Shown here piece after piece: positions 17,096 to 36,342 of a DNA stretch of 64,000 bases. A model generated the notes under the pieces. That model saw nothing but the letters and a program-made list of their open reading frames with translations, was not told the DNA's origin and made no database searches. The stretch is from Candidatus Kapaibacterium sp. (lineage in GTDB: Bacteria; Bacteroidota; Ignavibacteria; Kapaibacteriales; UBA2268): contig OY762428.1 of the NCBI GenBank assembly GCA_963665665.1, positions 2,560,001 to 2,624,000 of the forward strand, given 5' to 3'. The stretch's first letter is position 1, and the number at the start of each line of letters is the position of its first letter. Both the position numbers and the translations under genes were made by a program.

Positions 17096-17161
17096 TTTCT
17101 TTTTTCTTAGGGGGGCTTAGTTGCCCCCTTTATTATTCATCAACAAAAAGAGTAACATCAG

Positions 17162-18544
17162 ATGAAAATATATTATACAATATTTCTAATTACAATTATT
17201 TCCTCTCTTTCACTTTTTCCGGGCGAGTGGAGAACTGTAGATCATTATAAAGATTATTCCGAAACAGCAGTAAAATATTCATGTATTGATTGTATAAATG
17301 AAGACACATGTATTTCTTTTGGCCACGAAAGTTCTTTCAATATAAGAGAAAGGCATACATTTGAGGGTGGAAAAACCTGGGAAACAGGTCTGGAAATCAA
17401 TGGTTTCCATGATAGCAGCGGAAGATATCATGATTCGCCAAGAATGTGGTACGTTGATTATCTTAATAAGGATTTTTGCATTGCCATTGGAGATTCAGGA
17501 TGGATATACAGGTCAACCGACGGGCTGAAAACATGGGAAAAAGACAGCGTTCCTGAATATGAAAACAGTATATCGTTTATTCACATGCATGATGAGAATT
17601 TCGGAGTAACAGGATGTATAAATTTTTACATTACTCTTGACGGAGGCAGGAACTGGAAAAGCTATGATTTTAACAAATGTATTGAATTGCCGGATTCAAT
17701 GATTTTCTTTGGCACACAGGAAGCCTGTATATCGCAGGACGGAAAAGCAATTAAAGTTCTTGCTATTGACAGCATTGGAGTGGATCAATGGCATGAATAT
17801 ATTATTTCTTCTTCCGATACGGGCAAAACATGGGAGGTCTATCCCCACACTCCTCAAAGATTAAGTTTTCTGTATTTTTTTGATAATCTTCACGGTTTCG
17901 GCTGCGGAGGAGACAAAACATCGATTTATTCTACTACACGTAAATCATGTATATATTATACAAGCGACGGCGGGAAATCATGGGAAACAAGATTGGATAC
18001 ATTTAATGTACCAAAAAGAGACTTGAGGGAAATGCAATTTACTACTGAAGATACTGTTTATGCAAATGGGATAAGAAATAATGTGTGGCTTTCGACGGAC
18101 GCCGGACTTACCTGGAATATGACGGACAGCCTGAATAGCAAAGCTTGGGAAAATATTAATTCATACATTAGCGATTACTGTTTTCTTAAAAATGAAGTTA
18201 TATACGGCAGTTACTGGATGTACGGAGCAATTGTTAAATGGGAAGGCAAGCCCGTCGGTGTGGAAAGCGCCGCCCAGCCGGAACAGGAAGCCATACTTTA
18301 CCCCAACCCTGTAAGCCGTGGAGGCAAACTGAATATCCGTCTTCTTCACGACCGCTTTGCAAAAATCAGCATCAGCATCCTTTCAGCCGACGGACGTACC
18401 GTTGAAAAGCCATACACGGCGGAACTTCTCCCCGGTATGAATAAATTCGAATATAAAAACTGCGGGCTTACTCCCGGCGCGTATATTCTCCGTATATACA
18501 ACCCCGGCAATTTTGTTATTCACGAGAAATTCATTGTGGAATAG
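17162..18544 (+). CDS. BNR/YCF48-like beta-propeller protein with T9SS CTD, paralog 1
   Basis: Signal peptide, repeated S/T-x-D-G-G-x-T-W Asp-boxes, and 'LYPNP...PGAYILR' CTD. Confidence 0.85.
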   Translation: MKIYYTIFLITIISSLSLFPGEWRTVDHYKDYSETAVKYSCIDCINEDTCISFGHESSFNIRERHTFEGGKTWETGLEINGFHDSSGRYHDSPRMWYVDYLNKDFCIAIGDSGWIYRSTDGLKTWEKDSVPEYENSISFIHMHDENFGVTGCINFYITLDGGRNWKSYDFNKCIELPDSMIFFGTQEACISQDGKAIKVLAIDSIGVDQWHEYIISSSDTGKTWEVYPHTPQRLSFLYFFDNLHGFGCGGDKTSIYSTTRKSCIYYTSDGGKSWETRLDTFNVPKRDLREMQFTTEDTVYANGIRNNVWLSTDAGLTWNMTDSLNSKAWENINSYISDYCFLKNEVIYGSYWMYGAIVKWEGKPVGVESAAQPEQEAILYPNPVSRGGKLNIRLLHDRFAKISISILSADGRTVEKPYTAELLPGMNKFEYKNCGLTPGAYILRIYNPGNFVIHEKFIVE

Positions 18545-18551
18545 GATTTTA

Positions 18552-18584
18552 AACCATCCGAAGGTTCGGAACCTTCGGATGGTT
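18552..18584. repeat. perfect palindrome after each paralog (also 20019-20051, 21482-21514); REP/terminator-like
   Basis: aaccatccgaaggttc-g-gaaccttcggatggtt, identical three times. Confidence 0.85.
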
Positions 18585-18628
18585 ATGAAAGCAATACTGT
18601 TTTTTTACAAACAAAAAGAGTAAATCAA

Positions 18629-20011
18629 ATGAAATTATATTATACAATTTTATTTTTAGTTATTATATTTTCAAATTCTCTTTTGCCGGGCGAATGGACA
18701 ACTGTAGATTATTATAAAGATTATTCTGACTATGGCGTTTCATATTCATGTATTGATTGTATAAATGAAGACACTTGTATTTCTTTCGGTCACGAAAGTT
18801 TTTTCAATATAAGAGAAAGGCATACATTTGACGGCGGAAAAACCTGGGTAACAGGTCTGGAAATTAATGGTTTCCATGATAGCAGCGGAAGATATCATAA
18901 TTCACCAAGAATGTGGGACGTTGTATTTTTAAATAATAATTTTTGCATTGCCATTGGTGATTCTGGCTGGACATACAGGTCAACTGACGGACTTAAAACA
19001 TGGGAAAAGGATAGTCTGCCGGAATTTGAACATGGCGCTTCGTTTATAAATATGCATGATGAAAATTTCGGCGTTACTGGAAGCAGAAATTTTTATATTA
19101 CGCTTGACGGAGCCAGAAACTGGCAAAGCTATGATTTTAACAAATGTATTGAATTGCCTGATTCGATGATTTTCTTTGGCACACAGGAAGCCTGTATATC
19201 GCAGGACGGAAAAGCAATAAAAGTTCTTGCTGTTGACAGCATTGGAGTGGATCAATGGCATGAATATATAATTTCTTCTTCCGATACCGGTAAAACATGG
19301 GAGGTGTATCCCCACACTCCTCAAAGACTCAGTTATCTGTATTTTTTTGACGAGCTTCACGGTTTCGGCTGCGGTGGAGACAAAACATCGCTTTATTCCA
19401 CAACTGCAAGGTCGTGTATATATTATACAAGTGACGGCGGGAAATCATGGGAAGCAAGGCTGGATACTTTATTTGTACCCAAATACAAACTTCAAAAATT
19501 AGATTTTGTAACAGAAGACACTGCTTATGCTTACGGTAGTAAAAACAATGTCTGGCTTTCGACCGATGCCGGCATGACATGGAATATGATGGACAGCCTG
19601 AAAAGTAAGGCCTGGGAGCATATTAACGACCACATTGATCGTTATTGTTTTTTAAAGAACGAAGTTATATATGGTTGTTACTGGATGTACGGAGCAATTG
19701 TTAAATGGGAAGGCAAACCCGTCGGAGTGGAAAGCGCCGCCCCGCCGGAACAGGAAGCCATACTTTACCCCAACCCTGTAAGCCGTGGAGGCAAACTGAA
19801 TATCCGTCTTCTTCACGACCGCTTTGCAAAAATCAGCATCAGCATCCTTTCAGCCGACGGACGTACCGTTGAAAAGCCATACACGGCGGAACTTCTCCCC
19901 GGTATGAATAAATTCGAATATAAAAACTGCAGCCTTACTCCCGGCGCGTATATTCTCCGTATATACAACCCCGGCAATTTTGTTATTCACGAAAAATTCA
20001 TTGTGGAATAG
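18629..20011 (+). CDS. BNR/YCF48-like T9SS protein, paralog 2
   Basis: Same architecture; diverged in patches from paralogs 1 and 3. Confidence 0.85.
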   Translation: MKLYYTILFLVIIFSNSLLPGEWTTVDYYKDYSDYGVSYSCIDCINEDTCISFGHESFFNIRERHTFDGGKTWVTGLEINGFHDSSGRYHNSPRMWDVVFLNNNFCIAIGDSGWTYRSTDGLKTWEKDSLPEFEHGASFINMHDENFGVTGSRNFYITLDGARNWQSYDFNKCIELPDSMIFFGTQEACISQDGKAIKVLAVDSIGVDQWHEYIISSSDTGKTWEVYPHTPQRLSYLYFFDELHGFGCGGDKTSLYSTTARSCIYYTSDGGKSWEARLDTLFVPKYKLQKLDFVTEDTAYAYGSKNNVWLSTDAGMTWNMMDSLKSKAWEHINDHIDRYCFLKNEVIYGCYWMYGAIVKWEGKPVGVESAAPPEQEAILYPNPVSRGGKLNIRLLHDRFAKISISILSADGRTVEKPYTAELLPGMNKFEYKNCSLTPGAYILRIYNPGNFVIHEKFIVE

Positions 20012-20094
20012 GATTTTAAACCATCCGAAGGTTCGGAACCTTCGGATGGTTATGAAAGCAATACTGTTTTTTTACAAACAAATGAGTATATCAA

Positions 20095-21474
20095 ATGAAA
20101 AATTATTTTACATTGATTTTAATTCTGTTTAATTATTTACCATTATATTCAGGCGAGTGGAAGACTGTAGATCATTATAAAGATTATTCCGAAACAGCAG
20201 TAAAATATTCATGTATTGATTGTATAAATGAAGACACATGTATTTCTTTTGGCCACGAAAGTTCTTTCAATATAAGAGAAAGGCATACATTTGAGGGTGG
20301 AAAAACCTGGGAAACAGGTCTGGAAATTAATGGTTTCCATGATAGCAGCGGAAGATATCATGATTCGCCAAGAATGTGGTACGTTGATTATCTTAATAAG
20401 GATTTTTGCATTGCCATTGGAGATTCAGGATGGATATACAGGTCAACCGACGGGCTGAAAACATGGGAAAAAGACAGCGTTCCTGAATATGAAAACAGTA
20501 TATCGTTTATTCACATGCATGATGAGAATTTCGGAGTAACAGGATGTATAAATTTTTACATTACTCTTGACGGAGGCAGGAACTGGAAAAGCTATGATTT
20601 TAACAAATGTATTGAATTGCCGGATTCAATGATTTTCTTTGGCACACAGGAAGCCTGTATATCGCAGGACGGAAAAGCAATTAAAGTTCTTGCTATTGAC
20701 AGCATTGGAGTGGATCAATGGCATGAATATATTATTTCTTCTTCCGATACGGGCAAAACATGGGAGGTCTATCCCCACACTCCTCAAAGATTAAGTTTTC
20801 TGTATTTTTTTGATAATCTTCACGGTTTCGGCTGCGGAGGAGACAAAACATCGATTTATTCTACTACACGTAAATCATGCATATATTATACAAGCGACGG
20901 CGGGAAATCATGGGAAACAAGATTGGATACATTTAATGTACCAAAAAGAGACTTGAGGGAAATGCAATTTACTACTGAAGATACTGTTTATGCAAATGGG
21001 ATAAGAAATAATGTGTGGCTTTCGACGGACGCCGGACTTACCTGGAATATGACGGACAGCCTGAATAGCAAGGCCTGGGAAAACATAAACCATTATATAT
21101 TTAAATACTGTTTCCTCGAAAATGAAGTTATATACGGCAGTTACTGGATGTACGGGGCAATTGTTAAATGGGAAGGCAAGCCCGTCGGTGTGGAAAGCGC
21201 CGCCCCGCCGGAACAGGAAGCCATACTTTACCCCAACCCTGTAAGCCGTGGAGGCAAACTGAATATCCGTCTTCTTCACGACCGCTTTGCAAAAATCAGC
21301 ATCAGCATCCTTTCAGCCGACGGACGTACCGTTGAAAAGCCATACACGGCGGAACTTCTCCCCGGTATGAATAAATTCGAATATAAAAACTGCGGCCTTA
21401 CTCCCGGCGCGTATATTCTCCGTATATACAACCCCGGCAATTTTGTTATTCACGAAAAATTCATTGTGGAATAG
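20095..21474 (+). CDS. BNR/YCF48-like T9SS protein, paralog 3
   Basis: Mature region almost identical to paralog 1, with a different signal peptide and last-blade patch. Confidence 0.85.
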   Translation: MKNYFTLILILFNYLPLYSGEWKTVDHYKDYSETAVKYSCIDCINEDTCISFGHESSFNIRERHTFEGGKTWETGLEINGFHDSSGRYHDSPRMWYVDYLNKDFCIAIGDSGWIYRSTDGLKTWEKDSVPEYENSISFIHMHDENFGVTGCINFYITLDGGRNWKSYDFNKCIELPDSMIFFGTQEACISQDGKAIKVLAIDSIGVDQWHEYIISSSDTGKTWEVYPHTPQRLSFLYFFDNLHGFGCGGDKTSIYSTTRKSCIYYTSDGGKSWETRLDTFNVPKRDLREMQFTTEDTVYANGIRNNVWLSTDAGLTWNMTDSLNSKAWENINHYIFKYCFLENEVIYGSYWMYGAIVKWEGKPVGVESAAPPEQEAILYPNPVSRGGKLNIRLLHDRFAKISISILSADGRTVEKPYTAELLPGMNKFEYKNCGLTPGAYILRIYNPGNFVIHEKFIVE

Positions 21475-25729: not shown

Positions 25730-28236
25730 CTAAATTGCATTAATTTCAATAGGTACTTCAATTATATTTCGAACGGTTGTGTAAAGTTCTACATCTTGTG
25801 CTGGTGTTTCAAGTGAAATAATCAATGAATAACGGGTTTGATTTTCTACTTTCCCTAAATGCTTTCGTTCACGCCACCATCCAATGACTGGATAAACTGC
25901 AATGTGATTGCAATCAGAAAGTTCTGCTGCTGTCATTTCCATATAATCTGAATGTATTGAACCGTTACTACGATTATCTTTTCCGACTTGCCACCGTTCA
26001 GCACCCGAATTTGCTTGGAAATCTTCAGCTTCCTCTCTTGCTGCGATATTCATTCGTTTTCTGAAAACATCTTCACTTTCATCTACGTTATTGACATCAA
26101 AACGCAACCCATGCGACTGATAGCGGTATTTATTTTTCCAACCGATTTCACCTGCTCCAGGTTCAATGAAATAGGATAGTGTGATTTTTAGTTTTACCGG
26201 CGTTTCGCCCATTTGCAGCAACAAATCGCTTGCCCATGGAAGATTGAAAAAATGAATTTCGTTTGTTTCAGGGGTACTGCTTCCTTGTTTGAAATTAAAC
26301 GGTTGAATGATTTCCTGCGCAATATATGTCAATGCACTTTCCTGACTATACAATGCACGGTCTAAATCGGGAACGCCAAAACCAAAGGTTCTCAACAAAT
26401 TCCGAAAACTCGCTCGGTTACCTTGTTGAACCTGAGATTGAGCCAGCATAGCATCATTCCAATTAGCCGAGTGTACAACCAAACCTCTTATGGTTTCAGC
26501 CCAAACATTTGGATACTCATACGCGATTTTCGCAGCAAACCATGCTGCTTGTGCCGCCGCCGCACTTGTAGCATTTAAAGTATCAAATGGTTTTAAATTA
26601 AACGACTTTGATGTAGACAGCAATTCCAAATCTTCGTGGGCAGTAACACTGTCATCAGGTGCTTTTAGAAGATTTCCGCCTTCAAAAACTACATCAGGTT
26701 TTATTGGCCACTTTCTTTCCCATGTGAGTGAGGTAGAACTGTAGGGTGAAAGCTCGCCTTCATTAGCAACTGGAGTGTAATCCCGGAAATTATCACTGTT
26801 TACTTGAATTTTATTGGTGTATGCTCCAGCAACTAATGCGTTCCAAGCTTGGGCAGGATTTTGAACAGGTGATTTTCGTTTGAATGCGGATAATTACGCC
26901 ACATTTTCTCTTCATGAATATTTCCAGCAGAAACAATTATCAATCGTTGATTTTCACCTTTTCCATATGTTAGGTTATCAATCTCACCTGACCAAGACGA
27001 AGGTCTACCCATATTAACATCTTCTGTTGATGTAACGGACATGCAATAAACCAACACCATATTTGTGTTTTGAATTTCTGCCCTTGCAATGCCCTGTGCG
27101 GTAATATCGCCCCACAATTCGTTTGGTGTTTGTGGTTGATTGGAACGTGGTAGAATTTTTACGGAGCAAAGTTTATGTGTAAGCGGTACTGCATTTGTGG
27201 AAACAAGCACTTGTTCCATTTGTCCGTAACCTGCAATGCCTGCCATTAGCGTTCCATGCCCAGCTCGTGGTTCGTGGTCATCTGTTCCCCAAGCATTATC
27301 AACTGTCAATGTATTTGTATCGTCAATAATAGGTTGCAAGAGTTGGTGTCCATTGTTTACACCCGAATCTAACAAACATACTTTTATGTTGCTTTCTACA
27401 ATGTGTATTCTTTGCAATAGATTATCAACCCACGCTTGTTGCTCAATACTACTTTGGTTAACCCAAAATCCTGCAGGTTCTTGTCCTTCTCTGAACTCTG
27501 CAAGGAGATCGCTTTGTAACATCAGCTCAACCAACTGTTCACGGTTGGCATTTATCAACAAAACGGCTCTTTCGGGAAAGTAGATCCTGTTATGTTTATA
27601 GGTTATTCCAATGTGGTCAAGTGTTGCCTGAAACTGTGTAATTTGTTCCAGTTCCTTATTTTCTTTAGTATTTACGTTTAGCCACGCTTCGCACCATTTT
27701 GTATTTTCATTCGGAATATGTTCTGGATCGTCTGTCCACAAACCCTCCAACAAAGCTATGCTTACGTCCTCAATACTATTGACTAATGGAGCATTTTTAG
27801 GTTGTCCCTTTGCTGTTTCTTCCTGTTGGTATTTTTGAATTTTAGCTATAAAATGTCCTTCCTTACCTTTTGGTACATAGACAGTTGCTCTTATTTGAAT
27901 TTGATTCTCGTCTGCTGGAATTTCTTTGATGTTCAGCAAACGAATACCTTTTCTAAGGTCTTCCAAACTTTTGGTAATCAAATCATGATCTGCGCCACTG
28001 GTAAATTGAATATATGTACCTTCTCTAGTGGTAATTTGATGAGCACTACGTTGTTGTAGCAGTAGCTCTTTTTGTTTCCAAATTTCATTAAACTGATTTA
28101 GAAGTTTTTGACTGTGGGTTACCCTGTTACGAACAGGTATGTGTTGTTTACCTCCCCTGGCCGAAGGTACTTTATATTTTTCGCTGTTTACATTACCTGT
28201 TATAAAGATGTGTTTATATGATGTCATTTTTAACAT
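25730..28236 (-). pseudogene. ietS: S8 subtilase of IetS type, split by a frameshift near 26873
   Basis: 5' ORF has 'LLDSGV', 'HGTLMAG' and 'VSAGN'. Shifting frame at ...aac gaa aa|tca cct gtt caa aat cct gcc caa gct tgg gives SPVQNPAQAWNAL...IKPDVVFEGGN...NATSAAA, joining ORF 25730..26629. Confidence 0.82.
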
Positions 28237-29190
28237 TTATTTGTGATACGCTGCATTACGGTCTTTGATTGCTTTTAAAATTAAATCATTATTCATCTGT
28301 TGCTTTTCATTCAAGATTATTTCTTTGATAGCATCAATGCAGGCAAGTGATATCTCAGCATGACTAAGTCCGTTAATGTTTGGTAATAAATCATCGAATT
28401 CAATTTTTTTACTGAATTTTGCAAGCCTGTTTTTTAGCAAATCACGTTTCTCGTCAATACTTGGCAAGTGGTATAAAATCACATCGTCAAACCTGCGGAA
28501 AAGGGCTTGATCTAAAAGTTGTTTATTGTTAGTAATGGCAATAACAAGACTGTAGGAATTGTCCCGTTCAATAAATTGAAGAAAAGAGTTCAGCACCCTT
28601 CTCATTTCGCCCACATCGTTATCACGGCTACGTTCTCCACCAATGGCATCAAATTCATCAAACAAATAAACGCCCTGTTTTTGCTCAATCAAATCAAACA
28701 CCTGTCGCAGTTTGGAGCTGGTTTCACCCATATATTTAGTTACCATCTTATCCATCAGAATAGTGTATAGCGGTAAGTTCAGTTCGTTTGCAATGATTGA
28801 TGCTGTCAATGTTTTTCCAGTTCCCGGAGGCCCCGAAAGCAAAATTTTCCTACGGTTTTCCAAATCGTGCTTTCGAAGTTTATCCCGTTGCACAAACTCT
28901 GAAATAATACGGTTTATTTTGTTCTTAATGTCTTCCGAAGCAATTATATCTGCAAGACTGACAGCAGGCACATTTTCCAATATCAATCCCTGCAAATCGG
29001 GGGCAAAAGCTTTGGTTTTATGCTTAACATCCTTTGCCTTGTCAATAATGGTTTTGATGTTGTTAGCAACAATTGTATGTCCCAACTTGGCTTCGTGGGC
29101 AGCTATCTGCAATGCTACAGTGGTAAACCTTTCGGGTTCGTTGTTGTAGTGTGCTTTTATTAATGATATTATGTAATCTGATTTTGCCAT
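28237..29190 (-). CDS. ietA: AAA+ ATPase of IetA type
   Basis: Walker A 'GPPGTGKT', Walker B 'LFDEFD', 'DVGEMRRVLNSFLQ', 'LD.ALFRRFD'; abuts the S8 gene. Confidence 0.88.
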   Translation of the reverse strand: MAKSDYIISLIKAHYNNEPERFTTVALQIAAHEAKLGHTIVANNIKTIIDKAKDVKHKTKAFAPDLQGLILENVPAVSLADIIASEDIKNKINRIISEFVQRDKLRKHDLENRRKILLSGPPGTGKTLTASIIANELNLPLYTILMDKMVTKYMGETSSKLRQVFDLIEQKQGVYLFDEFDAIGGERSRDNDVGEMRRVLNSFLQFIERDNSYSLVIAITNNKQLLDQALFRRFDDVILYHLPSIDEKRDLLKNRLAKFSKKIEFDDLLPNINGLSHAEISLACIDAIKEIILNEKQQMNNDLILKAIKDRNAAYHK

Positions 29191-29332
29191 TTTTTCTCTT
29201 TCATAAAGGTACTAATATTTATTGTATCTTTCTTCTTGTAGGGATATTTTTTCTCGCAAGGTCAGATGTGAGTTCGGATGTAATATAGCACTACTCATCT
29301 TTTCGACAAGATGAGCAGAGCGAATCTTGTCG

Positions 29333-29603
29333 AACACCTACATAAAACCAATATACAAATAATAATTGAAAATATCAGTTTATCCTGCTGTTTTTTGCTA
29401 TTAATAATGATAATTTTAATTTGTTGGGTTTATCCGGCTATGAACGAGTTGTAGTTCCCTCATTCCGAAGTTATACTTCGTAATGCTGTTTTCATCTGAA
29501 GCTGAGCTTCAAAATTCCAAGTGAAACTTTGCGGAAACGCCCTTCCCAAGCAGGGCTTGGAAAGGAGGAAAAGAAGAAAAAAATTCTTAATTCCAAGACT
29601 TTT
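29333..29603. repeat. ~250-270 bp direct repeat (AT-rich promoter-like block plus family A REP element), copy A
   Basis: Aligns by eye with 31556..31800; partial copy at about 25545..25736. Confidence 0.8.
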
Positions 29604-29659
29604 CTTATATTATATTTCAATAGGTTAAAATATTGGTTACAACCCCGGAGATATTTCTT

Positions 29660-30784
29660 ATGATTGAATATAACAATCCAAACAAAGTAAGTTTACTTGC
29701 CCGGCAATATTCTGATGCAGTGAAATATATTAAAGATCAGATTTTACTGAGTCGCAATCGAGCTGCTTCTGTTGTTAATAAAGAATTGCTGGGACTATAT
29801 TTTTTCATAGGAGAATATATATCTGTAAATTCCAGATCAAAAAACTGGGGTAAGGGGGCTGTTGAAACAATATCACAGCAATTGCAAGTGGAATTGCCTG
29901 GCCTTCGTGGCTTTTCTGCAACAAATATTAAAAACATGCGGATTTTCTATGAAGAATGGCAGGATATTATTGAAAATCGGCAAACAGCAACTGCCGGTTT
30001 GAATAACGTCAATTCAAAATTTCGGCAGTTAGCATCTGCCGAATTGACAAATGTGCAAATGGATGCTTTCACGGCTATTGGATTTTCTCATCATCGCGAG
30101 ATTATCCGAAAATGCAAGAACCGGGATGAAATGCTTTTTTATATTCGTCAATGTGCATCTGGTTTCTGGTCTGTAGAAAAGTTGAAATATTATTTAACTT
30201 CAGATCTTTTCAATAAAAAAGTGGCTTTGCAGAATAATTTTTCAGATACGATAAGCAATATTGAAAATCGGGCACAAGCTTTGAATTCATTCAAAGACGA
30301 GTACATTCTTGATTTTATTAATATTCAGGATCAGGATGAAGAAGCTGATGAAAGAATATTTGAGCATGAAATTGTGAATAATATCAGGAAATTTATTATG
30401 GCGCTTGGCTCAGATTTCAGCTTTATAGGGAATCAATACAGATTGATAATTGAAGAAGATGAATTTTTTATCGATCTCCTTTTTTTTAACCGGCGGCTTC
30501 AAAGCCTTGTTGCAATCGAATTGAAAAAAGGAAAGTTCAAGGCTGAATATGCCGGGAAAATGAATATGTATCTTTCTGCGCTTGATGAATATGTCCGCCT
30601 TCCAAATGAGAATCCTTCGATTGGTATAATACTTTGCAAAGAAAAGAATAATAAAGTTGTTGAATTTTCATTCCGGGACACAAGCAAACCAATGGGAGTA
30701 GCAATATACAAAACCGTCGATGAGTTACCTGAAAAATACCGTGATATTCTTCCTGATGCCGAAAAATTGAAGAATCTGATGTAA
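29660..30784 (+). CDS. YhcG/DUF1016 family PD-(D/E)XK nuclease-like protein
   Basis: 'LY..IG.YI', 'RGFSATNIKNMR.FY', 'KDEYILDF', 'FFIDLLFF', 'IELKKG.FK.EYAGKMNMYL', 'ENPSIGIILCK'. Confidence 0.9.
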   Translation: MIEYNNPNKVSLLARQYSDAVKYIKDQILLSRNRAASVVNKELLGLYFFIGEYISVNSRSKNWGKGAVETISQQLQVELPGLRGFSATNIKNMRIFYEEWQDIIENRQTATAGLNNVNSKFRQLASAELTNVQMDAFTAIGFSHHREIIRKCKNRDEMLFYIRQCASGFWSVEKLKYYLTSDLFNKKVALQNNFSDTISNIENRAQALNSFKDEYILDFINIQDQDEEADERIFEHEIVNNIRKFIMALGSDFSFIGNQYRLIIEEDEFFIDLLFFNRRLQSLVAIELKKGKFKAEYAGKMNMYLSALDEYVRLPNENPSIGIILCKEKNNKVVEFSFRDTSKPMGVAIYKTVDELPEKYRDILPDAEKLKNLM

Positions 30785-30920: not shown

Positions 30921-31033
30921 ATAAATAATATATCCTTATGATACATGGAGTTATATTACCCAAATTTGTGTTATATTCTCATTATTAGAGTCAAGTACTT
31001 TTGCAAATTCCTTTTTATTTACCCATTCATCCA

Positions 31034-31519
31034 TTATCCACAACATTTTTTATATTTCTTCCCACTACCACATGGACATGGTTCATTTCTGCCTACTTTC
31101 TTATTATTTATAACCGTTGTTTTTTTCAAGTCAGGTAAAAAATGAACTAAAGGCACAGGATTACCTTCTATCCCGATTTCTAAATGTCTTCTTTCTTGTG
31201 GAATTGCATTAAAATTAACAATCCCACCAATCAAATATCTTAGGTTTGAGTCTCCTCTAATTCCTAGTCTTGTTGCTTGCTCGATTTTATCTGAGTCAAA
31301 AACTACTACAGGACAGGATTTACAAAAATGGCTACCTGTCATATTACTCATAAACTCGCATTCATCCGTATCAGATTTTGCAGCAATTAATACAGTGCAA
31401 TTATCCTCAATCAACGGTAATCCACATTCCGGACAAGAACTCAATCCACAATCGTCGCTGAAATATCTTCTTCTCGGTATTGATAAATCAAATTTGTTTT
31501 TGAAACCTTCATTCGTCAT
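31034..31519 (-). CDS. Zn-ribbon protein with C-terminal SEC-C motif
   Basis: CPEC and C..C pairs; terminal '[21 protein letters not shown]'. Confidence 0.85.
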
Positions 31520-31555
31520 GTTTTTTTATTGCACCGTGCTTTCAGCCTTGTTGGT

Positions 31556-31800
31556 AACACCTATATAAATCCAATATACAAATTATTTTAAAATTATCTG
31601 CTTATCCTGCTGTTTTTGCTGCTAATAATGATAATTTTTATTTGTGGGTTTCCCTCATTACGAAGTTGTACTTCGTAATGCAGTTTTCATCTGAAGCTTT
31701 GCTTCTAAATTTCAAAGTAAAACTTTGCGGAAACGCCCATCCCCGGCAGGGCTTGGAAAGAAGGAAAAGAAGACAAAATTCTAAATCCCGAGACTTTTTT
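31556..31800. repeat. direct repeat copy B (promoter-like block plus family A REP)
   Basis: Matches 29333..29603 apart from an indel of about 25 bp and scattered substitutions. Confidence 0.8.
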
Positions 31801-32700
31801 TCAGTTATTTCTTTTTAATTGCGCTATCAATGCCAGCGGTTCCTGTATAAAAGTAATTGTATTATCATCCAATTCGTTCAAATACCAGTCAGCAGCGCTT
31901 CCGCCAATATATACAGGTATGCCTGATAAATGTGCCCTGATCTTTTTCAGGTCGTCAATCAGTTTTAAATCTCCGGACGGATAAATGGCGCTAAGAACAA
32001 TAGCAATCGACTTGGTGCGGGAAACAGTCAGGATAATATCTTCAGCCGGAACTGAAGCGCCCAGGTAAACAGGCCTGAATCCATGAATTGATATAAGGGC
32101 TGCTATGGCAAGCCCTGCAAGCTCGTGGTTCTGGTTCACCGGAGAGGCAATTACAACAGGTGGCGCGCTGTCAGTTGTACTGTTGTCGATTATTGATCCC
32201 AGGGAATTTCTAATCATTGCCGAGGCGAAATGCTCGTTTGAAATTCTCAACTCGCCACTTTCCCAGCGATTCCCGATTTCTTTAAGCAGGGGTAGGATGA
32301 ACATTATTATATAGTCAGTCCTTGATAATTTTATCAGCATAGAATCAAGTATATTTTTTAAGCCGGCCGAATTAAAATTTTTGACAGCTTCAATGGCATC
32401 ATTTATACTATTATTGTTATCAGATTGATCAGAAGCAACATTTTCTCTGCTATTTTCTACAATTTCGCTGATCTCGTCAACAGACATCCGGGCAAGTTCA
32501 CCAATCTTGAAACCATTACTTATTGCATCCCTAATAAGCAGGAGCTTGTTCAGATCATCATCCGAATACATACGCCTGTTTGTTTCTGTCCTTACCGGAT
32601 TAATAATATTATACCTGTTTTCCCATGTTCTGAGCAACAACTGGCTCAACCCCGTCTTGTTCGAGATATATTTAATCGGATATTTTAAATCACTTTCCAT
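31801..32700 (-). CDS. carH: CarH/LitR-type cobalamin-dependent MerR-family photoreceptor regulator
   Basis: MerR wHTH 'LLRTWENRY...P.RT.TNRRMYS'; W-x9-EH motif 'WESGELRISNEH'; B12 Rossmann domain with 'NQNHELAG', 'YLGASVP', 'IVLS', 'YIGG'. Confidence 0.88.
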   Translation of the reverse strand: MESDLKYPIKYISNKTGLSQLLLRTWENRYNIINPVRTETNRRMYSDDDLNKLLLIRDAISNGFKIGELARMSVDEISEIVENSRENVASDQSDNNNSINDAIEAVKNFNSAGLKNILDSMLIKLSRTDYIIMFILPLLKEIGNRWESGELRISNEHFASAMIRNSLGSIIDNSTTDSAPPVVIASPVNQNHELAGLAIAALISIHGFRPVYLGASVPAEDIILTVSRTKSIAIVLSAIYPSGDLKLIDDLKKIRAHLSGIPVYIGGSAADWYLNELDDNTITFIQEPLALIAQLKRNN

Positions 32701-32718
32701 ATTAATTTGCTATAAATT

Positions 32719-32923
32719 TATACACAAAATCCATTTTCTATACAGACGCTTTACAAAGTTAATAATTTTTTTTAAATTTTTTATAAAATCTATACAATAA
32801 CTATACAATGCTTTCGTTCTTCATTACAAGTTCATTGACAAATTAATTGAAAAGCAATAAAATTAAAGGGTTTTATTAGCAATATAAAAAAAATCAAACA
32901 AGAACATGTATAGAATTTGTATA
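32719..32923. promoter_or_regulatory. CarH-operator-like 11-bp-phased TnnACA repeats in the divergent intergenic region
   Basis: TATACA 32739 / TTTACA 32750; TATACA 32791 / TATACA 32802; reverse TGTATA 32907 / TGTATA 32918; extra TATACA 32719. Confidence 0.7.
32835..32863 (+). promoter_or_regulatory. sigma70-like promoter for the microprotein array
   Basis: TTGACA (32835-40), 17 bp spacer, TAAAAT (32858-63). Confidence 0.55.
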
Positions 32924-32952
32924 ATTTATAATTTATAATGAAGGAGACAGAA

Positions 32953-33123
32953 ATGTCATCAATAAGCGAAATCAAAAGCCGCATATCAGTAAAATGGATC
33001 AAAGCAGAATCAGGAAACACATACCTTTGCCCGGCAAATGTGATGGAAAAACTTGACAACCCGACAGAAGAAGATCTTATGAGGTACTGTGTGAACGAAT
33101 CCGAAAATCCGCAGAACGACTAA
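32953..33123 (+). CDS. two-Cys microprotein, copy 1 (56 aa)
   Basis: AAGGAG RBS; MSSISEIKSRISVKWIKAESGNTYLCPANVMEKLDNPTEEDLMRYCVNESENPQND. Confidence 0.88.
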   Translation: MSSISEIKSRISVKWIKAESGNTYLCPANVMEKLDNPTEEDLMRYCVNESENPQND

Positions 33124-33173
33124 TAAAAAATTGAAACAAAAAAAATAAAATTATAATAATCAGGAGATACAAA

Positions 33174-33347
33174 ATGGATAGCAAAACAAGCGAAATCAAA
33201 AGCCGCATATCAGTAAAATGGATCAAAGCAGAATCAGGAAACACATACCTTTGCCCGGCAAATGTGATGGAAAAACTTGACAACCCGACAGAAGAAGAAC
33301 TTATAAGGTACTGTGTGAACGAATCCGAAAATCCGCAGAACGACTAA
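33174..33347 (+). CDS. two-Cys microprotein, copy 2 (57 aa)
   Basis: AGGAG RBS; MDSKTSEIK...TEEELIRYCVNESENPQND. Confidence 0.88.
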   Translation: MDSKTSEIKSRISVKWIKAESGNTYLCPANVMEKLDNPTEEELIRYCVNESENPQND

Positions 33348-33397
33348 TAAAAAATTGAAACAAAAAAAATAAAATTATAATAATCAGGAGATACAAA

Positions 33398-33571
33398 ATG
33401 GATAGCAAAACAAGCGAAATCAAAAGCCGCATATCAGTAAAATGGATCAAAGCAGAATCAGGAAACACATACCTTTGCCCGGCAAATGTGATGGAAAAAC
33501 TTGATAATCCGACAGAAGAAGACCTTATGAGGTACTGCGTGAACGAATCCGAAAACCCGCAGAACGACTAA
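33398..33571 (+). CDS. two-Cys microprotein, copy 3 (57 aa)
   Basis: AGGAG RBS; MDSKTSEIK...TEEDLMRYCVNESENPQND. Confidence 0.88.
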   Translation: MDSKTSEIKSRISVKWIKAESGNTYLCPANVMEKLDNPTEEDLMRYCVNESENPQND

Positions 33572-33622
33572 TAAAAAAATTGAAACAAAAAATATAAAAT
33601 TATATTAATCAGGAGATACAAA

Positions 33623-33796
33623 ATGGAAAGCAAAACAAGCGAAATTAAAAGCCGCATATCAGTAAAATGGATCAAAGCAGAATCAGGAAACACATACCTT
33701 TGCCCGGCAAGTGTGATGGAAAAACTTGACAACCCGACAGAAGAAGAACTTATGAGGTACTGCGTGAACGAATCCGAAAACCCGCAGAACGACTAA
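33623..33796 (+). CDS. two-Cys microprotein, copy 4 (57 aa)
   Basis: AGGAG RBS; MESKTSEIK...LCPASVME...TEEELMRYC... Confidence 0.88.
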   Translation: MESKTSEIKSRISVKWIKAESGNTYLCPASVMEKLDNPTEEELMRYCVNESENPQND

Positions 33797-33847
33797 TAAA
33801 AAAATTGAAACAAAAAATATAAAATTATAATAATCAGGAGATACAAA

Positions 33848-34021
33848 ATGGAAAGCAAAACAAGCGAAATTAAAAGCCGCATATCAGTAAAATGGATCAA
33901 AGCAGAATCAGGAAACACATACCTTTGTCCGGCAAATGTGATGGAAAAACTTGACAACCCGACAGAAGAAGAACTTATGAGGTACTGTGTGAACGAATCC
34001 GAAAACCCGCAGAACGACTAA
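33848..34021 (+). CDS. two-Cys microprotein, copy 5 (57 aa)
   Basis: AGGAG RBS; MESKTSEIKSRISVKWIKAESGNTYLCPANVMEKLDNPTEEELMRYCVNESENPQND. Confidence 0.88.
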   Translation: MESKTSEIKSRISVKWIKAESGNTYLCPANVMEKLDNPTEEELMRYCVNESENPQND

Positions 34022-34066
34022 TAAAAAAATTGAAAAAAAATTAAATTATAATAATCAGGAGTTAAC

Positions 34067-34240
34067 ATGGAAAGCAAAACAAGCGAAATTAAAAGCCGCA
34101 TATCAGTAAAATGGATCAAAGCAGAATCAGGAAATACATACCTTTGCCCGGCAAATGTGATGGAAAAACTTGACAACCCGACAGAAGAAGAACTTATGAG
34201 GTACTGCGTGAACGAATCCGAAAACCCGCAGAACGACTAA
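34067..34240 (+). CDS. two-Cys microprotein, copy 6 (57 aa)
   Basis: AGGAG-TTAAC-ATG; same protein as copy 5 with synonymous differences. Confidence 0.88.
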   Translation: MESKTSEIKSRISVKWIKAESGNTYLCPANVMEKLDNPTEEELMRYCVNESENPQND

Positions 34241-34275
34241 AAACGAATGTCATACCTTTAAAAATATTGTTACCG

Positions 34276-34307
34276 AAAGAGGCTGCCAAACGACAGCCTC
34301 TTTTTTT
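34276..34307 (+). terminator. intrinsic terminator closing the array
   Basis: aaagaggctg-ccaaacga-cagcctcttt followed by T-run. Confidence 0.85.
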
Positions 34308-34330
34308 AATTTTTTTATGTTCTTAGCAGA

Positions 34331-35053
34331 TCAGAAGGCAAAAACAAGTTTGAAGACATCACTCCAGTGAGTAATTGCCAGGCGATAGCCGAGGAAAGTA
34401 CCGAAACCAACAAAAGTAATACCGGCAAACTGCCTGATCCTTGTGATCATGTTAGTTGACATTCTTTCCTTAAAATGATTTACTATCCTGACAAGAGTTT
34501 GAAGCCAGACAAAATTACCTATACCAAATCCGAGAGCAAATCCCAATCCGGCAATAGTAGTGCTTTCAATCAGTTTGAATTCCTGAACGTTGAGTGTTAC
34601 ATAAGCTATTGACGGGAGAAATGTGGGATTAGGAAGATTAGTAAGGGAAAGAGCAATACCAAGAAGGAATGGCCCTCTTTTCATCAGGTTGTCTATGAAT
34701 TTCGGGTTGTTAGTTTTTAATTGTGTATCAAAATCAGCATCATTTGCGTCTTTCCGGGATTTAAGGTTCAATATTCCAAAAATTACCATCGCAAGAACAA
34801 TGGAGAGCTGAATAACAAACATGATGTAGGGATGATCAATTGAAAAACCACCTACAGCCGACATTGCCGCTTTTGTAGCAAACAAAGCAGCCAAACAATA
34901 AAACATATCTAATAATGCAGTTCCGAGAGCCATTTTAATTCCGGGCCGGATATTACCCAATAGCCCGTACTGAATGGCTGTTACGCCAATCGGCCCCGGA
35001 GGCATGGCCAGCACGAAACCAACCAAAAAACCAACAAGTATTGCAATAATCAC
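34331..35053 (-). CDS. LysE family translocator
   Basis: 'GFVLAMPPGPIG', 'LSLTNLPNP', multiple TM helices. Confidence 0.8.
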   Translation of the reverse strand: MIIAILVGFLVGFVLAMPPGPIGVTAIQYGLLGNIRPGIKMALGTALLDMFYCLAALFATKAAMSAVGGFSIDHPYIMFVIQLSIVLAMVIFGILNLKSRKDANDADFDTQLKTNNPKFIDNLMKRGPFLLGIALSLTNLPNPTFLPSIAYVTLNVQEFKLIESTTIAGLGFALGFGIGNFVWLQTLVRIVNHFKERMSTNMITRIRQFAGITFVGFGTFLGYRLAITHWSDVFKLVFAF

Positions 35054-35250
35054 ATGCGCCTCGATTAATCCAACATAATCGCAGGGCAGCGCAAAGTATT
35101 TGTTTTCAATCTATTATCAATCAAGCTTAGTGTCAGTGTCCTTTATCTTTTCGTCAGCCTTTCCTTCAAAGAACAGGCTTTTATCTCCGCTAAAACAAAA
35201 CTGCCCTATCAAAAAAATAGTTAGATAGTTATTATATCAATGTTCGAAAA

Positions 35251-36342
35251 TTGCACAAGTGTGCAAATAATTACACACAATCTACGAAAAGCTTACTAAA
35301 TATCCAAAAAAATGTCTTCTTCCACCTATTTAGATTATTAGCTGATACTAAACATTGCTATTTGAAATATATCAAAAAAAATGAAAAAAAATTGCTAAAG
35401 TTTATATACTTTAATGCCGAGACTATAAACGGGTATTTGTATCTGTATTTTAATTTGTGGAATAATTTGTTCGAAACCGGAAACATAGAAGCAATCATTC
35501 AACCTACTTTCACAAAGCCAATAAGTGAAAGCAGGGAGAACTCTTTATACAGGAATTATCTTAATGATTCTGACGGCCGGGAGAATAACACAAAACAGCA
35601 GGACAGATTCACTCCTTCATCCGCCGACAGGAGTATGGATGATTATACTAAATTGATAAAACAAAACCTGGGAAATCCTGTTCCCGTCAATGAAACATCC
35701 ACGGATGAAGCAGAAAGACAGGCCGGAAATAATTCCGAAAAAACATCATCTGCTAACAACGAAAATACGAAAAATGCTTCTTCTACCGACGGATTAACTG
35801 ATGAAGAAAGAGCCGAGGTAAGAGAATTGCAGCAAACAGATGCCGAAGTAAAGGCCCATGAATCTGCTCACATTGCTGCCGGGGGCAGCCTTGTTCGTGG
35901 CGGTGCCAGTTTCGAGTACCAAAAAGGGCCTGACGGAAAGCAATATGCAGTGGGTGGAGAAGTTCATATTGATATTAGTAAGGTTAGTGGCGATCCTGAA
36001 GCAACTATCAGAAAAATGCAGAAGGTAAGAACGGCCGCTTTAGCACCCGCCGATCCTTCTTCGCAGGACAGGATGGTTGCGGCACGTGCTTCCTCGATTG
36101 AGGCGCAGGCAAGAACCGAGCTGTCCAAACAAAGGGCGGAAGCGAGTCAATCCACAAATGATACAAATAATATCAATTTTGATAATCGTGGAAAATCGTC
36201 GGAAAACAGTAATTCCCAAAAGGCCAATTCCGAATCATCAACACCCTCAATTTATCAAGGCTCCGGCGTAGAAAGCCTGGATGTGTACCTAAAGGCCCAA
36301 AAAGAAAATCAATTACCAGGATATGTAAACCGCACTGCCTGA
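35251..36342 (+). CDS. SprA-related family protein (true start probably later, about 35468)
   Basis: 'EVRELQQTDAEVKAHESAH...YQKGPDGKQYAVGGEV.ID...PEATIRKM..V..AALAPADPS.QD..VAA.A'. Confidence 0.8.
   Translation: MHKCANNYTQSTKSLLNIQKNVFFHLFRLLADTKHCYLKYIKKNEKKLLKFIYFNAETINGYLYLYFNLWNNLFETGNIEAIIQPTFTKPISESRENSLYRNYLNDSDGRENNTKQQDRFTPSSADRSMDDYTKLIKQNLGNPVPVNETSTDEAERQAGNNSEKTSSANNENTKNASSTDGLTDEERAEVRELQQTDAEVKAHESAHIAAGGSLVRGGASFEYQKGPDGKQYAVGGEVHIDISKVSGDPEATIRKMQKVRTAALAPADPSSQDRMVAARASSIEAQARTELSKQRAEASQSTNDTNNINFDNRGKSSENSNSQKANSESSTPSIYQGSGVESLDVYLKAQKENQLPGYVNRTA

What the first reader, a model, noticed from the sequence alone, without database searches (positions are those of the whole stretch)
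31801..34307. B12 photoreceptor (CarH/LitR) divergently paired with a six-copy tandem array of a two-cysteine microprotein
Seen: six ~220-225 bp units each encode a 56-57 aa protein (…SRISVKWIKAESGNTYLCPA(N/S)VMEKLDNPTEE(D/E)L(M/I)RYCVNESENPQND). Each has its own AGGAG RBS and TAA stop, none is disrupted, and one terminator closes the array. All six differ at DNA level and give five protein variants, which argues against a collapsed or duplicated assembly artefact. Directly divergent is a MerR regulator with RxWExRY, W-x9-EH and a B12-binding His motif. Established: CarH/LitR (Thermus, Myxococcus, Bacillus megaterium) use adenosylcobalamin to repress carotenoid and photolyase genes in the dark. 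No such genes are adjacent here. Inference: a light-inducible operon whose only output is a dosage-amplified small protein with C-x19-C, a basic N-half and an acidic C-half. Possible roles are a thiol-based photo-oxidative stress scavenger, a cobalamin or metal binder, a CarS-like antirepressor, or a structural/storage peptide. I do not recognise it as a described system.
Basis: partly seen in the sequence, partly recalled or inferred. Interest (0 to 1): 0.93.

Follow-up and report, generated by a model that had tools for sequence, protein, structure and literature searches.

The report
Light-switch repressor driving six microprotein genes
A vitamin-B12-type light-sensing repressor sits back to back with six tandem copies of a tiny two-cysteine protein from an undescribed family that elsewhere lies between a thioredoxin and a peroxiredoxin gene, which points to a role in light or oxidative stress.

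Summary
Six intact tandem ORFs of 56-57 aa lie at 32953-34240. A CarH-like MerR/B12 regulator lies divergently at 31801-32700.

New evidence:
- The intergenic region holds three pairs of 11-bp-spaced TnnACA repeats, the published CarH operator. One run is in phase with the -35 box of the array promoter. None of 2000 random 250-bp genome windows has three such pairs.
- The closest full relative, locus L011, has carH, then a triple repeat overlapping -35, then thioredoxin-microprotein-peroxiredoxin.
- The microprotein matches no Pfam, NCBIfam, PDB or fold entry.
- In species genomes it is normally single-copy. A thioredoxin lies directly upstream in 43 of 60 loci and a 2-Cys peroxiredoxin directly downstream in 36 of 60.
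- A sister clade lies beside CarH-like genes in 9 of 15 rows.
- It was not found in 400 genomes of the window's class or 400 of its phylum.

Best reading: a horizontally acquired, CarH-repressed operon that lost its thioredoxin and peroxiredoxin genes and amplified a stoichiometric photo-oxidative-stress protein. Its biochemistry is unknown.

The parts
31801..32700 (-). CarH-like repressor gene (299 aa): MerR wHTH, four-helix bundle with W-x9-EH, and B12-binding Rossmann domain
   Evidence: Pfam MerR_1 2.1e-14, B12-binding_2 1.8e-08, B12-binding 4.6e-07. NCBIfam CarH 105.8 bits against a 400-bit cut-off. Best PDB hit is TtCarH 5C8D at E 2.5e-23, with RTWENRY, W-x9-EH and the His aligned. Q and A replace D/E and G of the classic D/ExHxxG motif.
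32735..32756 (+). Pair of 11-bp direct repeats (TATACA at 32739, TTTACA at 32750), proximal to the carH start
   Evidence: Regex scan. The repeat definition nnnnTnnACAn comes from passages of PMC9304148.
32787..32841 (+). Five contiguous 11-bp units. Two are full repeats (TATACA at 32791 and 32802), two are degenerate, and the fifth carries TTGACA at 32835, which is the -35 box. This is the putative CarH operator over the array promoter.
   Evidence: TTGACA lies 33 bp (3 x 11) after 32802. TATACA-N5-TATACA occurs 5 times in the 5.46 Mb genome, 2 of them in this intergenic region. None of 2000 random 250-bp windows has 3 pairs.
32835..32863 (+). Sigma-70-type promoter of the array: TTGACA, 17 bp, TAAAAT
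   Evidence: 11 of 12 consensus matches. The same -10 hexamer lies 17 bp after the third repeat in L011 (sequence printed, read by eye).
32906..32927 (-). Third pair of 11-bp repeats (TATACA x2, minus strand) in the predicted 5' leader
32953..33123 (+). Microprotein copy 1 (56 aa from ATG 32953; an upstream ATG at 32938 would give 61 aa)
33174..33347 (+). Microprotein copy 2 (57 aa)
33398..33571 (+). Microprotein copy 3 (57 aa)
33623..33796 (+). Microprotein copy 4 (57 aa)
33848..34021 (+). Microprotein copy 5 (57 aa)
34067..34240 (+). Microprotein copy 6 (57 aa, same protein as copy 5)
34275..34314 (+). Intrinsic-terminator-like hairpin and T-run closing the array. It is shared with the convergent LysE-family gene at 34331-35053.
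   Evidence: 11-pair stem, 5 GC pairs, T-run. LysE family from Pfam.

Best explanation
This is a CarH-type repressor-operator switch whose only obvious output in this genome is a hexacistronic mRNA for a 56-57-aa cytosolic protein.

Proposed switch (inferred from the CarH family):
- In the dark the adenosylcobalamin-bound regulator oligomer binds tandem 11-bp TnnACA repeats. These run into the -35 box of the array promoter. Further pairs lie near carH and in the leader.
- Light breaks the Co-C bond, the repressor leaves, and six strongly ribosome-bound copies are translated.

The protein and its origin:
- It belongs to an undescribed family with an invariant W..SG.TYLCP ... CV(D/N)ES.NPQN core.
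- In most genomes it is the middle gene of a thioredoxin-X-peroxiredoxin operon.
- In a sister clade it lies beside CarH-like genes and UV/light-response genes.
- The ancestral state was probably like locus L011: carH, then operator, then trx-X-prx.
- In the window's lineage the module arrived by horizontal transfer, lost trx and prx, and amplified X six-fold.

Proposed function: X acts stoichiometrically in defence against photo-oxidative damage, probably through its two conserved cysteines. This would explain selection for dosage.

What is shown and what is inferred:
- Shown: the anatomy, the operator-like repeats, the family's conservation and its gene neighbourhoods.
- Inferred: B12 and light dependence, repression, the thiol chemistry and the stoichiometric role.
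For: Regulator:
- The CarH hallmarks RxWExRY, W-x9-EH and the axial His align to TtCarH.
- The genome has a PduO-type adenosyltransferase and a photolyase.

Operator:
- Three 11-bp-spaced TnnACA pairs lie in the 252-bp intergenic region, against 0 of 2000 random windows with three.
- Five phased units end in the -35 box.
- The published CarH operator is tandem 11-bp nnnnTnnACAn repeats that include -35 (PMC9304148, passages).
- L011, whose CarH is 50% identical, has a triple repeat whose last unit serves as -35, upstream of trx-X-prx.
- Pairs also lie about 75-210 bp upstream of X in L076-78, L080/81 and L079.

Context of X:
- A thioredoxin lies directly upstream in 43 of 60 loci and a peroxiredoxin directly downstream in 36 of 60.
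- In clade A, 9 of 15 rows have a CarH-like gene in the fetched flank. Neighbours there include UvdE, DUF523-DUF1722, lipocalin, FAD oxidase, NmrA/SDR-like, fasciclin and DUF4397.
- LitR-controlled light clusters with photolyase, SDR, FAD oxidoreductase and hypothetical genes are described in PMC9758184 (passages).

Coding and selection:
- 15 invariant columns in 33 sequences; both Cys invariant in 60 genomic homologs.
- pN is well below pS among the copies.

Horizontal transfer and loss:
- X was found in 0 of 40 relatives, 0 of 400 class genomes and 0 of 400 phylum genomes.
- A CarH-like gene was found in none of the 26 same-family or same-order genomes searched.
- The genome has no operon-type trx (best 24% identity), and its best prx is 40% identical.
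Against: - There is no expression, light or B12 data. No RNA holder was listed.
- The B12 motif is QxHxxA, not D/ExHxxG/P, and the His after the Trp is missing. The score is far under NCBIfam's CarH cut-off.
- Most family members are not next to a CarH gene (6 of 60). Only 5 of 43 trx-upstream regions carry a repeat pair.
- A few distant family members lack one or both cysteines, which weakens an obligatory thiol mechanism.
- Weak promoter-like sites (10 of 12 matches) occur in three spacers, so some copies might be transcribed independently of CarH.
- The microprotein tree has 57 columns and many unresolved forks.
Confidence: 0.55

Rival explanations
1. The microprotein is a partner or modulator of the CarH-like regulator itself rather than a stress effector. 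It could be a CarS-like antirepressor that mimics DNA with its acidic C-half, or a handler of cobalamin or its photolysis products. Amplification would then sharpen or lock the switch.
For: X and CarH-like genes are adjacent in several orientations: divergent in the window, L011 and L060; co-directional and directly downstream in L076-78; convergent in L080/81. A CbiX-NUDIX fusion lies between carH and X in L062, L083 and L084, and a tetrapyrrole methylase lies near X in L060. The protein has a basic N-half and an acidic, invariant C-tail.
Against: Most homologs lie in trx-X-prx operons with no CarH within 6 kb. The AF2 model is a beta-hairpin plus two helices, not an SH3-like barrel (that CarS is SH3-like is recalled, not tested). 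The L060 tetrapyrrole methylase is on the opposite strand.
Confidence: 0.15
2. The switch is real but does not sense light. The CarH-like protein would report cobalamin availability, or redox damage to its cofactor, and the array would answer that signal.
For: The B12 motif is non-classic (Q and A in place of D/E and G), and the His that follows the Trp in TtCarH is absent. In L011 the regulator controls a peroxidase-type operon.
Against: W-x9-EH, described as crucial for photoreceptor activity and used to tell CarH from the B12-independent CarA, is intact in all 10 X-linked regulators aligned (PMC9304148 passages). Related loci carry UV/light genes such as UvdE and DUF1722. The genome has a photolyase.
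Confidence: 0.15
3. The array encodes precursors of a ribosomally made, exported peptide (a bacteriocin-like or RiPP product), with the neighbouring LysE-type protein as exporter.
For: Tandem near-identical small ORFs are typical of such loci (recalled). A LysE-family gene is convergent at 34331-35053.
Against: No maturation enzyme, leader-cleavage motif or immunity gene is nearby. The whole 57 aa is conserved across many phyla, as a single-copy gene inside redox operons. No signal or leader region is more variable than the core.
Confidence: 0.03
4. The six copies are an assembly artefact of one or two real copies.
For: No short-read contig spans the array.
Against: The six units differ at 10 sites beyond codon 5, and the differences are mostly synonymous. 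Array pieces reach up to 4.3 times the flank depth in X1, and are also elevated in a second strain from another study. The genome is a single contig.
Confidence: 0.02

Closest known systems
CarH/LitR adenosylcobalamin photoreceptor-repressors (Thermus thermophilus CarH, Myxococcus CarH, Bacillus megaterium CarH)
   Same: The domain order is the same: MerR wHTH, four-helix bundle, B12 Rossmann domain. RxWExRY, W-x9-EH and the axial His are present. The gene is divergent from its target. The operator consists of tandem 11-bp TnnACA repeats that include the -35 box.
   Different: The target is not carotenoid or photolyase genes but a six-copy microprotein array. The B12 motif is QxHxxA. There is no His after the Trp. 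The score is under NCBIfam's CarH equivalog cut-off. Light response is untested.
LitR-family light-inducible gene clusters of Pseudomonas (PMC9758184)
   Same: A MerR/LitR-type repressor lies next to a mixed set of light-induced genes: photolyase, SDR, FAD oxidoreductase and several hypotheticals. Clade-A loci of the microprotein carry UvdE, FAD oxidase, NmrA/SDR-like, DUF1722 and lipocalin genes.
   Different: Those class II regulators work through a LOV partner, not B12 (abstract and passages). No microprotein of this family is mentioned in the passages I read. Supplementary gene tables were not available to me.
Thioredoxin-dependent typical 2-Cys peroxiredoxin (AhpC/Prx1-type) operons
   Same: In 43 and 36 of 60 loci the microprotein gene is flanked by a thioredoxin (PF00085) and an AhpC/TSA peroxiredoxin with CP and CR motifs.
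   Different: A conserved third gene between the two is, as far as my four literature searches show, not described. The window has neither flanking gene.
CarS antirepressor of Myxococcus
   Same: It is a small acidic protein in a CarH/CarA light circuit (recalled; CarS is named in PMC9304148 passages).
   Different: There is no sequence relation (no Pfam or PDB hit). The predicted secondary structure is different. The family is mostly found without CarH.

Membership tests
CarH/LitR B12 photoreceptor repressor | N-terminal MerR-type DNA-binding domain with the RxWERRY-like recognition helix | tested here: met
   Pfam MerR_1 at E 2.1e-14. RTWENRY aligns to TtCarH RQWERRY.
CarH/LitR B12 photoreceptor repressor | Intact W-x9-EH motif in the four-helix bundle (it distinguishes CarH from the B12-independent CarA) | tested here: met
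   WESGELRISNEH aligns to TtCarH WHRGEIGVAEEH. The criterion comes from PMC9304148 passages.
CarH/LitR B12 photoreceptor repressor | Classic B12-binding motif D/ExHx2G/P ... SxT/V ... GG | tested here: inconclusive
   The His aligns to the TtCarH axial His, but the motif reads Q-N-H-E-L-A (Q for D/E, A for G/P). A GG lies further on. Pfam B12-binding scores 30.1 bits against a 32.1 cut-off.
CarH/LitR B12 photoreceptor repressor | Operator of tandem 11-bp direct repeats nnnnTnnACAn overlapping a promoter element | tested here: met
   Three pairs are present. One run of five phased units ends in the -35 TTGACA. None of 2000 random windows has 3 pairs. A triple repeat is conserved in L011.
CarH/LitR B12 photoreceptor repressor | NCBIfam equivalog score (NF052513, cut-off 400 bits) | tested here: not met
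   105.8 bits. It is a relative, not an equivalog by that model.
CarH/LitR B12 photoreceptor repressor | AdoCbl-dependent oligomerisation and DNA binding in the dark, lost on illumination | not testable with these tools
   This needs purified protein, EMSA or footprinting, and UV-vis spectroscopy.
Any described protein family, for the microprotein (Pfam, NCBIfam, PDB) | Significant profile or sequence match | tested here: not met
   None of 55 members hits Pfam at E <= 0.01. The best NCBIfam hit is E 0.12. The best PDB profile hit is E 0.45. Foldseek best is E 3.0 and VIA-align best is Z 2.9.
Thioredoxin-fold or CxxC redox proteins | CxxC active site on a thioredoxin fold | tested here: not met
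   The two Cys are 19 residues apart (C27, C47). The model is a beta-hairpin plus two short helices.
RiPP or bacteriocin precursor array | Adjacent maturation, leader-cleavage or immunity genes, and a variable core behind a conserved leader | tested here: not met
   The neighbours are SEC-C, YhcG nuclease, LysE and SprA-related genes. The whole length is conserved across phyla.
CarS-type antirepressor | SH3-like fold that binds the CarA/CarH DNA-recognition helix | tested here: inconclusive
   The AF2 model has mean pLDDT 70.1 and only two strands.

The most novel reading that the evidence does not exclude
The 57-aa protein is a previously unrecognised third component of bacterial thiol-peroxidase and light-stress systems. 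It would be a small two-cysteine, Trp/Tyr-bearing protein that takes oxidative hits or relays electrons, and that is recycled by a dedicated three-cysteine thioredoxin. It is widespread in uncultured Acidobacteriota, Ignavibacteria, Myxococcota, Latescibacterota, Zixibacteria, Planctomycetota and others. B12 photoreceptors have captured it repeatedly as a light-induced output, and here it is pushed to six-fold dosage.
Probability: 0.3. Interest if true: 0.85.

Novelty: new variant of a known kind. Interest (0 to 1): 0.72.

Why it matters
- CarH/LitR regulons are known mainly for carotenoid and photolyase genes. This locus, with L011 and a whole clade of related loci, would add a thiol-peroxidase operon and an unknown microprotein to the outputs of B12 photoreceptors.
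- The microprotein is very strongly conserved: 15 invariant positions in 33 sequences. It is widespread in uncultured phyla, unannotated ('hypothetical protein' wherever a source names it) and has no structural relative.
- Its fixed position between a thioredoxin and a 2-Cys peroxiredoxin suggests a missing player in a textbook antioxidant system.
- The window offers a natural experiment in which that protein alone was kept and amplified under a simple, testable switch. This makes it a convenient entry point for genetics and biochemistry, and possibly a compact light-controlled expression cassette.

Tried and rejected
- Complex prediction (L011-type thioredoxin + peroxiredoxin + microprotein, each as an alignment, microprotein as partner): score 0.00, no verdict. 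It counts neither for nor against binding.
- Fold searches on the pLDDT-70 model: Foldseek against PDB gave best E 3.0, and VIA-align wide gave best Z 2.9. Nothing usable.
- PDB profile search: best E 0.45.
- ESM Atlas: only unnamed 'hypothetical protein' clusters, and no usable named hit.
- Rfam on 31000-35500 at E <= 1: no match.
- Expression: no RNA holder listed.
- Literature: four searches (LitR/peroxiredoxin/light-inducible; CarH/peroxiredoxin; B12-dependent photoreceptor/thioredoxin; light-induced/small protein/CarH/regulon) listed nothing on a CarH- or LitR-controlled trx-prx operon or on this microprotein. I saw only the listings, except PMC9304148 and PMC9758184, where I read passages. 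Supplements are closed, so gene tables of light regulons could not be checked.
- Subtype by one residue: I first split the family into CVDES and CVNES types and placed the window in the CarH-linked CVNES type. The tree puts the window with the trx/prx-linked clade, nearest L007 and L010, so its Asn is convergent and I dropped that split in favour of tree clades. The metagenome scan was seeded with the CVNES alignment, so its 14 loci are biased towards clade A.
- Long repeat proteins among the representative hits (P0056, P0067, P0073, P0090) look like unrelated repetitive sequences and were left out.
- Other TATACA-N5-TATACA or T.TACA pairs in the genome lie before a MazE/MazF-like pair, inside coding sequence, or directly before a 1-Cys-Prx-like gene. 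None was followed up as a regulon member. No pairs were found upstream of the photolyase or SQS_PSY genes.
- Rows dropped: L051 (same sequence region as L050) from alignment A6; sequences under 40 aa and duplicate metagenome loci (L072, L074, L076, L077, L081, L084) from the tree.


Full report
**What is there**

Six same-strand ORFs of 56-57 aa lie between 32953 and 34240 (the first could also start at 32938). Tandem Repeats Finder reports one array of period 225, 5.7 copies and 96% matches. Each unit has AGGAG 7-9 nt before its ATG and ends in TAA. A terminator-like hairpin with a T-run follows at 34275-34304. Copies 5 and 6 encode the same protein, so there are five protein variants.

Beyond codon 5 the units differ at 10 nucleotide sites: seven synonymous, two non-synonymous, and one (codon 42) with both kinds of change. 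Among copies 2-6, pS is 0.03-0.16 and pN is 0-0.022. No Rfam family matches the region.

The window lies in a single-contig 5.46 Mb genome that holds only these six copies. Logan short-read contigs of four runs (two samples, two studies, two organism labels) stop at 32993 and restart at 34211. In between there are only 51-150-nt pieces at raised depth: up to 153 against about 35 in X1, and up to 15 against 4.4-6.3 in X4. This fits a real multi-copy repeat in two strains but does not verify the number six.

**The regulator**

The divergent 299-aa ORF at 31801-32700 has MerR_1, B12-binding_2 and B12-binding domains. Its best solved relative is Thermus thermophilus CarH (5C8D, E 2.5e-23). The alignment places RTWENRY on RQWERRY, WESGELRISNEH on WHRGEIGVAEEH (the W-x9-EH motif), and the His of NQNHELA on the axial His.

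Three features deviate. Q and A stand where the classic motif has D/E and G/P. The His that follows the Trp in TtCarH is absent. The NCBIfam CarH equivalog score is 105.8 bits against a cut-off of 400.

The definitions of W-x9-EH, of the B12 motif and of the operator come from passages of PMC9304148. The genome has one such regulator, a PduO-type adenosyltransferase, one photolyase and two SQS_PSY genes.

**The operator**

[quoted passage not shown] The 252-bp region between carH and the array has TnnACA at these positions:
- 32739 and 32750 on the + strand;
- 32791 and 32802 on the + strand;
- 32923 and 32912 on the - strand.

The best promoter match is TTGACA-17-TAAAAT at 32835-32863 (11 of 12 matches). 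Its -35 box is itself a TnnACA, exactly 33 bp after 32802. Five phased 11-bp units therefore span 32787-32841.

TATACA-N5-TATACA occurs five times in the whole genome, two of them here. Of 2000 random 250-bp genome windows, 1981 have no 11-bp-spaced pair, 18 have one, one has two and none has three. No pair lies upstream of the photolyase or SQS_PSY genes. The array is therefore the only obvious target.

**The family**

The microprotein matches no Pfam, NCBIfam or PDB entry and has no fold match. It does have relatives:
- 33 clusters among 5.8 billion proteins;
- 75 representatives at 50% identity among 1.84 billion;
- 60 loci in species-representative genomes. All are MAGs, labelled Acidobacteriota, Ignavibacteria, Myxococcota, Latescibacterota, Zixibacteria, Planctomycetota, Gemmatimonadaceae, Fibrobacteraceae and others.

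Conservation is extreme for so small a protein. W16, K18, S21-Y25, C27, P28, L43, C47, V48, E50, S51 and P54 are invariant in 33 sequences. Both Cys are invariant in 60 genomic homologs. A few distant representatives lack one or both Cys.

AlphaFold2 with 55 sequences gives mean pLDDT 70.1. The model has a beta-hairpin (14-18, 24-28), helices at 29-34 and 40-46, and a disordered invariant tail.

**Context elsewhere**

Clustering of neighbouring ORFs found two dominant neighbours on the same strand. Pfam identifies them as thioredoxin and AhpC/TSA peroxiredoxin. By strict adjacency, a thioredoxin ends less than 210 bp upstream in 43 of 60 loci, and a peroxiredoxin of more than 150 aa starts less than 280 bp downstream in 36 of 60.

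The thioredoxin is a distinct type, with C-W-A-x-W-C-x-x-C and a conserved C-terminal LDMxxVRA. The peroxiredoxin is a typical 2-Cys enzyme.

The gene is single-copy in all these loci except L062, which has a duplicated DUF4397-microprotein unit. It is also single-copy in the five whole genomes checked. A CarH-like gene lies within 6 kb in 6 of 60 loci.

**Two clades**

A maximum-likelihood tree of 67 sequences has only 57 columns and many open forks. It separates 15 rows (clade A, support 94/86) from 52 rows (clade B).

Clade B holds the trx/prx-linked genes, and also the window (nearest L007 and L010) and L011.

Clade A holds loci in which the microprotein sits beside CarH-like genes: L059 (5 kb away), L060, L062, L063, L078, L079, L080 and L083, with the near-duplicate loci L076, L077, L081 and L084. 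That is 9 of the 15 tree rows, counting L059. Four of the other six rows are on short contigs or have little upstream flank.

Neighbours in clade A include UvdE UV endonuclease, DUF523-DUF1722, lipocalin, FAD amine-oxidase-like, methyltransferase, NmrA/SDR-like, fasciclin, DUF4397 and a CbiX-NUDIX fusion. This resembles the mixed light-inducible clusters described for LitR regulators in PMC9758184 (passages).

All 10 microprotein-linked B12 proteins aligned keep W-x9-EH and the His. Seven have Q at the D/E position.

11-bp TnnACA pairs lie about 75-210 bp upstream of the microprotein in L076-78, L080/81 and L079. In clade B, 5 of 43 trx-upstream regions have a pair, against 0.9% of control windows.

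**The nearest full relative**

L011 has a CarH 50% identical to the window's. It is divergent from thioredoxin-microprotein-peroxiredoxin-(NAD-binding/DUF2867). A triple repeat TTTACA/TATACA/TATACA at 5489-5516 lies between them, and its last unit lies 17 bp before TAAAAT (sequence). This is the three-repeat architecture described for TtCarH, placed in front of a peroxidase operon.

The window has the same regulator type, the same repeat sequence and the same -10 hexamer, but only the middle gene, six times. Its genome has no operon-type thioredoxin (best 24% identity), and its best peroxiredoxin match is 40% identical.

**Origin**

The microprotein was not found in 40 relatives (24 same family, 16 same order), in 400 genomes of the class or in 400 of the phylum. 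CarH-like genes occur in 90 of the 400 other phylum genomes, but in none of the 26 sampled from the window's family or order. The best hits within the phylum are 32-41% identical, below the 47-52% of metagenomic relatives.

The region from 28 to 34 kb has slightly lower G+C (0.34-0.36 against 0.386 for the genome) and sits among defence-like genes. Horizontal acquisition of carH plus its target, followed by loss of trx and prx and tandem amplification, is the simplest history.

**Mechanism and odds**

I put about 0.8 on the array being a direct target of the CarH-like repressor. I put about 0.6 on the protein working in oxidative or photo-oxidative stress. I put about 0.3 on a stoichiometric thiol-based role, either as a sacrificial or buffering protein or as a relay partner of Trx/Prx. 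The combined statement is scored 0.55.

Rivals are:
- a modulator of the regulator or of cobalamin (0.15);
- a switch that senses B12 or redox state rather than light (0.15);
- an exported peptide precursor (0.03);
- an assembly artefact (0.02).

The complex prediction gave no verdict, and no expression data could be found.

**Novelty**

The switch is of a known kind. The output is an undescribed, widely conserved microprotein. Its fixed place between thioredoxin and peroxiredoxin, and its six-fold amplification here, are not in print as far as four full-text searches show. Supplementary tables could not be seen.

Noticed in passing
window 15632-21474: Three tandem paralogous ORFs of 459-460 aa (17162-18544, 18629-20011, 20095-21474) carry BNR/Sortilin-like repeats and a T9SS C-terminal sorting domain. 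A fourth T9SS-tailed ORF precedes them at 15632-17095. This is a second tandem gene amplification in the same window.
   Followed up: partly
window 25730-30784 and 52748-53647: Defence-like neighbourhood. A subtilase S8 appears split into two ORFs (25730-26629 and 26833-28236). Next to it are an AAA ATPase with a weak nSTAND3 match (28237-29190) and a YhcG/DUF1016 PD-(D/E)xK nuclease (29633-30784). An Abi_2 protein lies at 52748-53647.
   Followed up: no
G000:C1:5432970-5433640 (outside the window): An 11-bp-spaced T.TACA pair lies directly before the start codon of a 217-aa Prx-like ORF. It is either chance or a second weak CarH site.
   Followed up: no
L007-L055, thioredoxin genes upstream of the microprotein: The operon thioredoxin is a distinct subtype. 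It has a third nearly invariant Cys five residues before the WCxxC motif (C-W-A-x-W-C-x-x-C) and a conserved C-terminal LDMxxVRA extension.
   Followed up: no
L062 3064-7719; L083/L084 502-5123: In Acidobacteriota-like loci the order is carH, a CbiX-NUDIX fusion, one or two DUF4397 genes, then the microprotein. In L062 the DUF4397-microprotein unit is duplicated, and the second microprotein match is split into two pieces.
   Followed up: partly
L008 2238-3302: A 354-aa protein has B12-binding_2 and B12-binding domains, W-x9-EH and DxHxxG, but no MerR domain. Its N-terminal roughly 150 aa are unassigned. It lies 2.7 kb from a trx-microprotein pair, which is followed by fasciclin and DUF4397 genes.
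   Followed up: no
G000:C1:2771623-2772248 (outside the window): One of the five genomic TATACA-N5-TATACA sites lies upstream of a MazE/AbrB-like 80-aa ORF and a MazF-like 113-aa ORF, judged from their N-terminal sequences only. It is probably that pair's own operator.
   Followed up: no
window 33131-33160, 33355-33384, 33805-33834: Three of the five inter-unit spacers carry a weak promoter-like site, TTGAAA-18-AATAAT (10 of 12 matches). These could give CarH-independent transcription of the downstream copies.
   Followed up: no
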